Shown piece after piece: positions 61,516 to 63,315 of a stretch of DNA of 64,000 bases. Both the position numbers and the translations under genes were made by a program. The stretch covers positions 39,928,001 to 39,992,000 of the forward strand of contig OX597817.1 in assembly GCA_951406725.2 (NCBI GenBank), written 5' to 3'. Position 1 is the stretch's first letter. Every line of letters starts with the position of its first letter. The notes under the pieces were generated by a model. The model did not search any database and was not told where the DNA came from. It saw only the letters and a list, made by a program, of their open reading frames with translations. The DNA is from Octopus vulgaris (taxonomy: Eukaryota).

Positions 61516-61611
61516 ATGGGGATTGTGCAGAGTTGTACAGGTAAGAGGAAACACCCACGCTATGGATATGCCTCTGGGCAACCCCCGAAGAAGAGGAGAC
61601 TGAAGAGGAAA
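61516..61611 (+). CDS. Candidate first coding exon MGIVQSCTGKRKHPRYGYASGQPPKKRRLKRK (myristoylation/palmitoylation pattern + basic cluster)
   Basis: ATG with G at +4 and an in-frame upstream stop. Non-repetitive, relatively GC-rich island. Ends in a consensus AAA|GTAAGT donor (phase 0), with a second strong donor CAG|GTAAGA after 61540 (phase 1). MGxxxS pattern with Cys7. Confidence 0.55.
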
Positions 61612-63315
61612 GTAAGTGGGATATTAGTGTATATTAATTATAACATCATTAATGTAATCATGTGGTGAATAATTACATTTCTCTTTCTCAGTCTGTTTGT
61701 GTTTGTGTGTGTGTGTGTGTATGTGTGTGTGCGAGAGAGAGAGAGAGAAGATAGATAGTTTAGTGGTTAAGGTATTGGGCTCATAATCAGAAGGTTGTGT
61801 GTTCAGTTCCTGAGCCAGGCAGCTCATTGTATCCTTGAGCAAGTTACTTCAGTCAGTTTCACTGAGTATGAGAACCAGCCTAGTGCTTGTGCATCCCTCT
61901 TTCCTTCCAGCTATTACATGAATAAGTATCAGGCTTAAAAAGCAACCCAAGTACTGGGGTTGATTCGTTTTGACTAAAGTTCCTCAAAGCAGTGCCCCAG
62001 CATGGCCACGATGTAATGACTGAAACAAATAAAAGATAAACGAGAAAGATATATATCCACATACACGTACACAGGGTATCTGCTGTAAATTAGAGTTGCA
62101 ATTTGAAAAATTCAGAAAAAAACTGAAAAGTAAAGAGAACTTAGCAGAGTCTATTGGCAAACTCATAAAGTTTTAATAGAAACATCAGAACACTTCCACA
62201 TGGGTTCTGTTGATTTCCATGCAGCACCTGTGGATGATACAATACAATAAATTGTGGAAGATGTTATATTAGAAGACACTTACCCAATGTGCCACATACT
62301 GTGACTGAACCTGTATCCATTTGGTTGTGAAGCAAATTTCTTACCACAAAGCCATGCCTGCACCTATAAACATATTTATATATGTATGCATGTATGTATG
62401 CATATATGTAGTTCAAATTTACAGAAAACAAAAAGCAAAGACAGGTGATGGAACAATGAGCAGGTGTATTATAGTTTGACGCTCAGGAGGAATGGAAAAG
62501 TCTTTGATGTTTTGAGCCTATGCTCTTCAGCAGAAAGGATTAAGAGGGAAAAAAATGGAGTGAATGAAAAAAAAGCGGAGAAAAAAACATGTAGGGTTTA
62601 ATGCTTCTACATGATGAAAATGAATATATGTATATTTGTGTAAGAATTAATGTGTATGAAGTAATGGTTCAACTTGATGAAAATGTATGAGTGTGTTCAA
62701 CAAATGATGAAAATGTGTGTGTGTGTCTGTGTGTCTGTGCTCTATGAAAGTCAATTACCAAAGCTGTTGTCACTTCTGTCAACTAATTATCCTCTGGCTT
62801 TTTGCCTTTAGAGACATGTGCAATTCTTACCTAAAAAAAATTAAAAAACAGTTAAAGATTAGTGATAGGAAGGGCATCCAACTGTAAAACAATGCTTCTG
62901 TAATATATTCATCCAACTCATGCTGGCATGGGAAAATGGTTGTAAAACCATACAAATGATTCGTGCGTGTTTAAATAACATTAATAATGAGGAGCACAAG
63001 TTCATTTTACTGATATGTTATGTTGTGACAAAAATTGATCCATAAATTGTAACTACATCAATACATTTAAATTTGTTTCAATCGTTTCAAATTAATAACA
63101 ATAATAGTAGCAACAGCAACAACAATAATAAATGACAGTAATAGTAACAACAACAACAATGAAACTGTGATCAACATACCATCAGTCATTATCTGTTCAA
63201 AGTACTGGTAACATTCCAAGAAAATCTAATAAGGCATAGCAAAGGTCACTTTGTCTCACATCTTCACTACCCATAAAATCTGCCTATCCTCTCTCTCTCT
63301 CCCTCCCTCCCCCCC

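What the first reader, a model, noticed from the sequence alone, without database searches (positions are those of the whole stretch)
61516..61617. Hidden 32-codon first exon: myristoyl/palmitoyl signal plus bipartite NLS-like basic cluster, with two competing donors
Seen: ATG GGG ATT GTG CAG AGT TGT... gives MGIVQSCTGKRKHPRYGYASGQPPKKRRLKRK|GTAAGT, below the ORF-track cutoff. A second consensus donor (CAG|GTAAGA after 61540) would keep only MGIVQSCT and switch to phase 1. Established: MGxxxS is the N-myristoyltransferase consensus, a nearby Cys and a polybasic run are the usual second membrane signals, and KRK-x12-KKRR fits a bipartite NLS. Inference: a membrane-versus-nucleus targeting module that splice-donor choice could tune.
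Basis: partly seen in the sequence, partly recalled or inferred. Interest (0 to 1): 0.72.

Follow-up and report, generated by a model that had tools for sequence, protein, structure and literature searches.

The report
Possible lipid-anchor first exon near nesprin
A short stretch of DNA looks like the start of a protein carrying both a membrane-anchoring lipid signal and a nuclear-import signal, possibly a short form of the neighbouring nuclear-scaffold (nesprin-like) gene, but no transcript or relative confirms it and such starts are known in other proteins.

Summary
The combination is rare by chance (0 of 300 simulated windows; features chosen after the fact). GC content drops after the far donor, not the near one. 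No relative was found, but two clearly real neighbouring exons also gave no hit, so the blanks are uninformative.

New context: the upstream same-strand gene is nesprin/Msp300-like. Its six exon boundaries are phase 0, like the far donor. Its last spectrin exon seems to stop mid-repeat, before a 617-codon terminal exon. The segment may therefore be an internal first exon of a short, lipid-anchored nesprin isoform. The first exon of a separate downstream gene is nearly as likely.

The proposed splice tuning is not supported. The donors are 71 nt apart, so with one shared acceptor the near donor frameshifts (stop after 9-29 codons in 6 of 6 proxy exons).

Real first exon about 0.6. Similar starts are known (BPAG1a3, nesprin-1 p931KASH, GCL). 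Interest 0.35.

The parts
61516..61611 (+). Candidate first coding exon, 32 codons, ending at a phase-0 donor
   Evidence: GC 0.51, purines 0.66; single-copy in the window
61516..61536 (+). M-G-I-V-Q-S-C: N-myristoylation-type motif (Gly2, Ser6) with Cys7 as a possible S-acylation site
   Evidence: consensus passage in PMC4692089; acylation itself not tested
61543..61551 (+). KRK, first basic cluster
61588..61611 (+). KKRRLKRK, second basic cluster; purine-rich, 7 GAR triplets in the last 30 nt (enhancer-like)
61538..61546 (+). Near donor D1, CAG|GTAAGA, phase 1; the stronger U1 match, probably a decoy
   Evidence: U1 duplex -11.0 kcal/mol, rank 6 of 3748 plus-strand GT; GC rises after it, 0.39 to 0.52
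61609..61617 (+). Far donor D2, AAA|GTAAGT, phase 0; the likely exon end
   Evidence: U1 duplex -6.7, rank 115 of 3748; GC 0.52 to 0.24; largest GC contrast of 91 plus-strand GT[AG]AG sites; same 9-mer as the donor at 4200
61507..61509 (+). In-frame TAA three codons upstream of the ATG
61373..61516 (+). 47-codon upstream ORF whose TGA overlaps the A of the main ATG (TGATG); relevant only if transcription starts upstream of it
   Evidence: no Pfam match
61443..61463 (+). 6-codon upstream ORF
61612..61668 (+). Read-through tail if unspliced: 18 more codons, mean hydropathy 1.42, 50-aa ORF in all
61600..61629 (-). Rival signal: minus-strand branch-point-like sequence, pyrimidine tract and AG; an exon would start at 61599
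   Evidence: only 4 of 3685 minus-strand AG score as high
2169..2345 (+). Nesprin-like gene, helical exon, phase 0/0
4039..4200 (+). Nesprin-like gene, helical exon, phase 0/0
5845..6015 (+). Nesprin-like gene, helical exon, phase 0/0
6631..6807 (+). Nesprin-like gene, helical exon, phase 0/0
14486..14788 (+). Last spectrin-type exon in the window, phase 0/0, apparently ending part-way through a repeat
   Evidence: the repeat register is my reading
39842..41695 (+). 617-codon phase-0 terminal exon, Ser/Thr/Pro-rich, no Pfam match above cut-off; AATAAA at 41725; candidate alternative last exon

Best explanation
61516-61611 is the coding part of an alternative first exon inside a very long intron of the nesprin/Msp300-like gene. 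An internal promoter starts transcription; the exon splices at the far, phase-0 donor onto phase-0 spectrin exons beyond the window, giving a short isoform without the actin-binding head. The protein is myristoylated on Gly2 and possibly palmitoylated on Cys7. The basic residues add binding to acidic membranes and can double as an importin-binding signal, so location would be set after translation (depalmitoylation, phosphorylation, importin masking), not by donor choice. The near donor is normally silenced by the purine-rich sequence between the donors; when used, it ends the frame. Shown: the sequence anatomy, phases, composition boundary and nesprin-like nature of the neighbour. Inferred: transcription, the splice partner, acylation and localisation. 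Probability that the exon is real, whatever its gene: about 0.6.
For: Rarity: 0 of 300 simulated windows. Composition boundary at D2, ranked 1 of 91. No upstream acceptor: of 24 AG in 61150-61540 the best scored 0.0. Neighbour: ESM Atlas score 0.93 to an Msp300 cluster (PF25034 in 100% of members) and to a spectrin cluster (PF00435 in 48%), with 9 of the 10 best family hits in one clan. The five helical exons are phase 0 at both ends, and the terminal exon opens in phase 0. The model of exon 14486-14788 is a short helix, a turn and one long helix with a low-confidence end, which fits helix B-C-A stopping before the repeat closes (my reading). The terminal exon's first 120 residues are 38% S/T/P/G and do not continue it. 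A codon scan found no further spectrin exon up to 64000. Precedents (passages read): internal promoters and alternative 3' ends in nesprin-1/2, with a predicted myristoylation site on p931KASH (PMC3388047); Msp300 isoforms from alternative promoters and terminators (PMC11230431); enhancers between two donors repress the upstream one (PMC5397162).
Against: No transcript, ortholog or exon 2 was seen. Phase 0 is the commonest intron phase (recalled), so the match is weak evidence. The nesprin-like gene may simply end at 41695. The start context has T at -3, and a window starting at 61237 holds 11 upstream ATGs. D1 pairs better with U1 than D2. The exon scores -0.25 bits per codon under a codon model trained on the neighbour's exons, below all six leave-one-out controls (-0.06 to +0.25), though that model mainly reflects amino-acid make-up. 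My acceptor score is crude: three of six true acceptors scored 0.3 or less. Foldseek gave no significant match for the spectrin-type exon, nor did Pfam, so the nesprin label rests on the Atlas and my reading of the register.
Confidence: 0.33

Rival explanations
1. It is the real first exon, spliced at D2, of a separate gene whose other exons lie beyond 64000; the nesprin-like gene ends at 41695. Germ cell-less (GCL) is one candidate because it has the same layout, MG, then KRK, then P-basic4-L.
For: All exon-level evidence. A stop codon and AATAAA close the upstream gene 20 kb earlier. All 6 GCL sequences in Table 1 of PMC11094379 start with MG and show KRK and then P-[KR]4-L (compared by eye). 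GCL's NLS takes it to the nuclear envelope (passage in PMC13390627).
Against: In 5 of those 6 GCL sequences the basic run is followed by x-S-T-S-x-Y-I-Y (the fly has a variant of it), and the linker is acidic; here the run is followed by KRK and the peptide has no D or E. No GCL or BTB motif lies in 61612-64000 (3 patterns, 3 frames). GCL itself I put at about 0.05.
Confidence: 0.26
2. It is non-coding DNA or a fragment of a repeat: a purine-rich, GC-rich patch that happens to read as K/R codons behind a chance ATG-GGG.
For: No match anywhere. Weak start context and a strong internal donor. Multiplying the rates as if independent gives about 0.0003 chance cases per window, which is close to my own rough guess of how often true myristoyl-plus-NLS first exons occur. 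Another frame reads EEEETEEES over the same purine run.
Against: The blanks are uninformative because real exons also failed. Sharp GC drop exactly at D2. Single-copy in the window, while the flanks hold repeats.
Confidence: 0.26
3. The functional signal is on the minus strand: a branch point, pyrimidine tract and AG open an exon at 61599, and the plus-strand basic cluster is the mirror of that tract.
For: Only 4 of 3685 minus-strand AG score as high. Only 3-4% of 5000 synonymous re-codings of the plus-strand peptide give an acceptor this strong. One frame is open and scores +0.06 bits per codon.
Against: K/R codons plus GTAAGT create such tracts: 51-60% of re-codings give a score of 5 or more. 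With the tract fixed, shuffling the upstream 185 nt gives an in-frame MGxxx[ST] in 62 of 20000 and the full motif set in 2 of 20000. Its donor would be weak (U1 -5.8). No minus-strand gene was recognised: none of the minus-strand frames tested reached a Pfam cut-off.
Confidence: 0.06
4. D1 is the real exon end, encoding only MGIVQSCT as a myristoyl-palmitoyl tag with the 'NLS' being intron; or the transcript is unspliced and makes a 50-aa microprotein with a hydrophobic tail.
For: D1 has the better U1 match, rank 6 of 3748. The read-through tail has mean hydropathy 1.42.
Against: GC rises rather than falls after D1; it falls after four of the five known donors in the window and is level after one. 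AT-rich intron DNA readily reads as I/Y/N/L. The 50-aa ORF is not in the exact look-up.
Confidence: 0.06
5. One reading: both donors give proteins, one lipid-only and one lipid-plus-NLS, and donor choice tunes localisation.
For: Both donors are consensus sites.
Against: 71-nt offset; a stop follows after 9-29 codons in 6 of 6 in-window phase-0 exons used as proxies. It needs a second, phase-1 acceptor that rejoins the main frame.
Confidence: 0.03

Closest known systems
Nesprin-1/2 and Drosophila Msp300 short isoforms from internal promoters and alternative 3' ends (PMC3388047, PMC3981789, PMC11230431; passages read)
   Same: Spectrin-repeat gene on the same strand, with a candidate alternative last exon and a candidate internal first exon; one nesprin-1 variant has a predicted N-myristoylation site.
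   Different: The link between this exon and the nesprin-like gene is not shown; no KASH exon is in the window. The passages read describe mostly UTRs or short unique peptides, not a combined acylation and bipartite-NLS module.
Dystonin/BPAG1a3 isoform-specific N-terminus (PMC3352950; passages read)
   Same: An isoform-specific N-terminus with a myristoylation motif on a giant spectrin-family protein, from a gene with several promoters.
   Different: BPAG1a3 is a spectraplakin whose alternative starts lie at the head of the gene; here the start would be internal. No sequence similarity was tested.
Germ cell-less (GCL/GMCL1) N-terminus (PMC11094379 section 8 read in full; PMC13390627 one passage)
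   Same: MG start, KRK, then P-[KR]4-L; the NLS moves GCL to the nuclear envelope. That GCL is myristoylated is recalled, not from a call.
   Different: No S-T-S-x-Y-I-Y after the basic run, no acidic linker, a shorter spacer and no BTB exon within the window.
Acylation-controlled membrane/nucleus shuttling, such as PLSCR1 (PMC8600410; passages read)
   Same: Lipid anchor competing with nuclear import.
   Different: There the switch is post-translational and shown experimentally; here nothing has been tested.

Membership tests
N-myristoyltransferase substrates | Gly directly after the initiator Met | tested here: met
   holds only if this ATG is used
N-myristoyltransferase substrates | No aromatic residue or Pro at the position after Gly; Ser/Thr/Cys at position 5 after Met removal | tested here: met
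   Ile and Ser against the passage in PMC4692089
N-myristoyltransferase substrates | Small residue at position 4, as worded in PMC4692089 | tested here: not met
   Gln at position 4. The PROSITE pattern as I recall it leaves this position free, so this is not disqualifying.
N-myristoyltransferase substrates | The Met is a real translation start and the lipid is attached | not testable with these tools
   needs 5' RACE or ribosome profiling, and metabolic labelling
Classical bipartite NLS | Two basic residues, a 10-12 residue spacer, then at least 3 basic residues in 5 (pattern recalled) | tested here: met
Classical bipartite NLS | Importin-alpha binding and nuclear import | not testable with these tools
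   no assay; no complex prediction was run
Alternative first exon of the nesprin-like gene | The neighbouring gene encodes SYNE1/Msp300-type spectrin repeats | tested here: inconclusive
   Atlas 0.93 with clan agreement 9 of 10; no Pfam, PDB or Foldseek confirmation
Alternative first exon of the nesprin-like gene | Same strand and frame-compatible donor | tested here: met
   phase 0 at D2 and at all six neighbouring exon starts; weak evidence
Alternative first exon of the nesprin-like gene | Downstream spectrin or KASH exons and junction reads | not testable with these tools
   the window ends 2.4 kb after D2; no animal genome or reads available
Germ cell-less | MG, KRK, P-[KR]4-L layout | tested here: met
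   by eye against 6 of 6 sequences
Germ cell-less | S-T-S-x-Y-I-Y-type motif right after the basic run | tested here: not met
   KRK follows instead
Germ cell-less | BTB domain | not testable with these tools
   none in 61612-64000; anything beyond the window is unseen
Interspersed repeat | Multiple copies | tested here: inconclusive
   single-copy within 64 kb; the genome was not available

The most novel reading that the evidence does not exclude
An internal promoter makes a short, KASH-bearing nesprin isoform whose actin-binding head is replaced by a 32-residue dual-acylation plus bipartite-NLS module. It would tie the nuclear envelope directly to a second membrane when acylated and move to the inner nuclear membrane when the lipid anchor is released. 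The near donor and the TGATG upstream ORF would act as off-switches.
Probability: 0.12. Interest if true: 0.68.

Novelty: new member of a known kind. Interest (0 to 1): 0.35.

Why it matters
If real, this is an exon too short for ORF-based annotation that decides where a protein sits in the cell. In the nesprin reading it would give a lipid-anchored nesprin that could link the nucleus to another membrane without actin, testable with two point mutants. In the other readings it is an ordinary myristoylated first exon or nothing. One literature search for octopus, nesprin and cephalopod together listed 4 papers, none on this topic by title or abstract start (listing only). One for myristoylation, NLS, alternative first exon and spectrin listed 15 papers holding at least 3 terms (listing only). 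These searches do not show that it is absent from print.

Tried and rejected
Homology searches for the peptide all came back empty. These were the word-indexed search of proteins of 89-2000 aa (1 candidate, none at E<=10), phmmer over 1.84 billion representatives (0), PDB sequences (0), Pfam (0), exact look-ups (0 of 10; 0 of 9), phage tblastn (none) and the ESM Atlas (best 0.78, unnamed clusters, low recognition). Positive controls failed too: the 617-aa exon (1081-3085 aa) and the 101-aa exon (178-2000 aa). Proteins of 28-88 aa and over 2000 aa were not searched by similarity in that database.

Rfam on 56000-64000 gave 52 matches, all below gathering score and mostly on microsatellites. Foldseek on the 101-aa model gave nothing at E<=0.001. 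Pairwise alignments among the neighbour's exons gave only marginal similarity (best p 0.01 and 0.03 among 28 pairs), so they do not fix the repeat register.

An internal coding exon was rejected (upstream in-frame stop, no AG). An exon 2 within the window was rejected: the 9 AG sites scoring above 2 in 61640-64000 open only short or repeat-derived frames. Of 231 open frames of 36 aa or more beyond 41700, only about 15 were scanned against Pfam. Three literature searches returned 0 papers.

IMG/VR and JGI metagenome contigs stayed unchecked. The bacterial and archaeal genome scan was not used because it is irrelevant to an animal exon. No supplementary files were read; those of PMC3388047 may list further unique nesprin N-termini.

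Full report
Observation. The finding is in the sequence as described. Translation from 61516 gives MGIVQSCTGKRKHPRYGYASGQPPKKRRLKRK, then AAA|GTAAGT at 61612; CAG|GTAAGA follows 61540. Unspliced, the frame runs to 50 codons. An in-frame TAA at 61507-61509 with no AG before the ATG rules out an internal coding exon in this frame. The segment is single-copy in the window, while repeats flank it from 61762 on. The DNA is AT-rich animal-type sequence full of microsatellites.

Chance. Of 144 ATG-to-donor open segments on both strands, this is the only one with MGxxx[ST] and the only one with a bipartite-NLS pattern. In 300 simulated windows, MG plus bipartite arose 3 times and MGxxx[ST] plus bipartite never. 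Multiplying the single rates gives about 0.0003 full matches per window. That is small, but the features were chosen after the fact and true exons of this kind are also rare (my estimate), so the motifs alone give roughly even odds. Composition adds support: GC is 0.52 before the far donor D2 and 0.24 after it, the largest contrast of 91 plus-strand GT[AG]AG sites. Against it stand T at -3, upstream ATGs, a near donor D1 that pairs better with U1 than D2 (ranks 6 and 115 of 3748), and a codon score below all six control exons. I put a real first exon at about 0.6.

Relatives. None was found. This says little, because two clearly coding exons of the neighbouring gene also returned nothing in the same database. 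No animal genome or read collection was available, so conservation and expression are untested.

Five plus-strand exons (2169-2345, 4039-4200, 5845-6015, 6631-6807, 14486-14788) encode helical sequence and are phase 0 at both ends. The last resembles Msp300/SYNE1 and spectrin clusters in the ESM Atlas (0.93; 9 of 10 best family hits in one clan), although Pfam, PDB and Foldseek gave no significant match. Its model is a short helix, a turn and one long helix with an uncertain end. I read this, from knowledge of spectrin repeats, as helix B-C-A stopping before the repeat closes. The next exon found, 39842-41695, opens in phase 0, is Ser/Thr/Pro-rich, and ends in a stop with AATAAA 30 nt later. 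No further spectrin exon appears up to 64000. So the long form of the gene may continue past the window, with 39842 as an alternative last exon and the candidate as an alternative first exon in the same long intron. Nesprin-1/2 and Msp300 are built this way (passages of PMC3388047, PMC3981789 and PMC11230431). One nesprin-1 variant has a predicted myristoylation site, and BPAG1a3 has a conserved myristoylation motif (passages of PMC3352950). The link remains an inference: phase 0 is common, and the gene may end at 41695.

The two donors. They are 71 nt apart. On a shared acceptor only one can be in frame. Joining D1 to each of six in-window phase-0 exons as proxies gave a stop after 9-29 codons in 6 of 6. 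D1 therefore cannot yield a lipid-only version of the same protein unless it has its own phase-1 acceptor, and no convincing exon 2 lies in the remaining 2.4 kb. Nine GAR triplets lie between the donors. Enhancers in that position repress the upstream donor and favour the downstream one in human reporters (passages of PMC5397162). D1 is best read as a silent decoy or an off-switch.

Mechanism. Shown: motif, phases, composition. Inferred: Met removal and myristoylation of Gly2 (the motif fits the passage in PMC4692089 except for Gln at its position 4), possible palmitoylation of Cys7, and a basic patch of 11 K/R with no acidic residue that could bind acidic lipids or importin-alpha. By established behaviour of doubly acylated polybasic N-termini (recalled), the default is membrane binding. 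A move to the nucleus would need a post-translational release, as for PLSCR1 (passage of PMC8600410).

Rivals. (1) First exon of a separate gene, 0.26. GCL has the same layout in 6 of 6 sequences in Table 1 of PMC11094379 (section read), and its NLS takes it to the nuclear envelope (passage of PMC13390627). The motif that follows the basic run in GCL and the acidic linker are missing here. Passages of PMC12005264 added nothing on myristoylation. (2) Chance or repeat, 0.26. (3) A minus-strand exon opening at 61599, 0.06. Its acceptor ranks in the top 4 of 3685 and only 3-4% of synonymous re-codings match it, but fixing it explains the plus-strand motif set in only 2 of 20000 shuffles. (4) D1-only exon or 50-aa microprotein, 0.06. 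(5) Productive tuning by both donors, 0.03.

Verdict. This is probably a real short first exon with an acylation motif and a basic cluster, a new member of a known kind. Its most interesting reading is a lipid-anchored short nesprin isoform. Interest 0.35; the boldest reading has probability 0.12 and would deserve 0.68.

Noticed in passing
window 39842-41695 (+): 617-codon phase-0 terminal exon, low-complexity with a short helical-looking C-terminus; no homolog among proteins of 1081-3085 aa and no Pfam match above cut-off. Candidate KASH-less alternative end of the nesprin-like gene.
   Followed up: partly
window 14789-39841 (+): 25-kb stretch with no coding exon recognised by the codon scan; the introns before it are 0.6-7.7 kb.
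   Followed up: partly
window 61373-61516 (+): 47-codon upstream ORF with A at -3 whose stop overlaps the candidate ATG (TGATG), a stop-start arrangement; may be chance.
   Followed up: partly
window 61237-61242 (+): The only TATA-like hexamer in the 516 nt before the ATG; a GT repeat and 11 ATGs lie between it and the ATG.
   Followed up: no
window 55600-55900, 57280-57580, 63560-63850: Non-microsatellite stretches that are single-copy in the window, apart from the 3' end of the third. 55873-55693 on the minus strand has splice-like ends and one open frame. None reached a Pfam cut-off.
   Followed up: partly
window 20506-20805 (-) and 54145-54429 (+): Open frames that look like Tc1/mariner transposase fragments (recalled resemblance; Pfam gave no match).
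   Followed up: partly
window 36581-37328 (+): Broken frames that look like the end of a non-LTR retrotransposon (recalled resemblance; only weak Pfam matches).
   Followed up: partly
window 4932-5491 and 47910-48188: A 303-nt tandem duplication (1.8 copies, 93% match) and a 50-nt minisatellite (5.6 copies).
   Followed up: no
window 23251-23700: The most CpG-rich stretch of the window (14 CpG in 200 nt); it looks like a young SINE-type repeat rather than a promoter (recalled resemblance).
   Followed up: no
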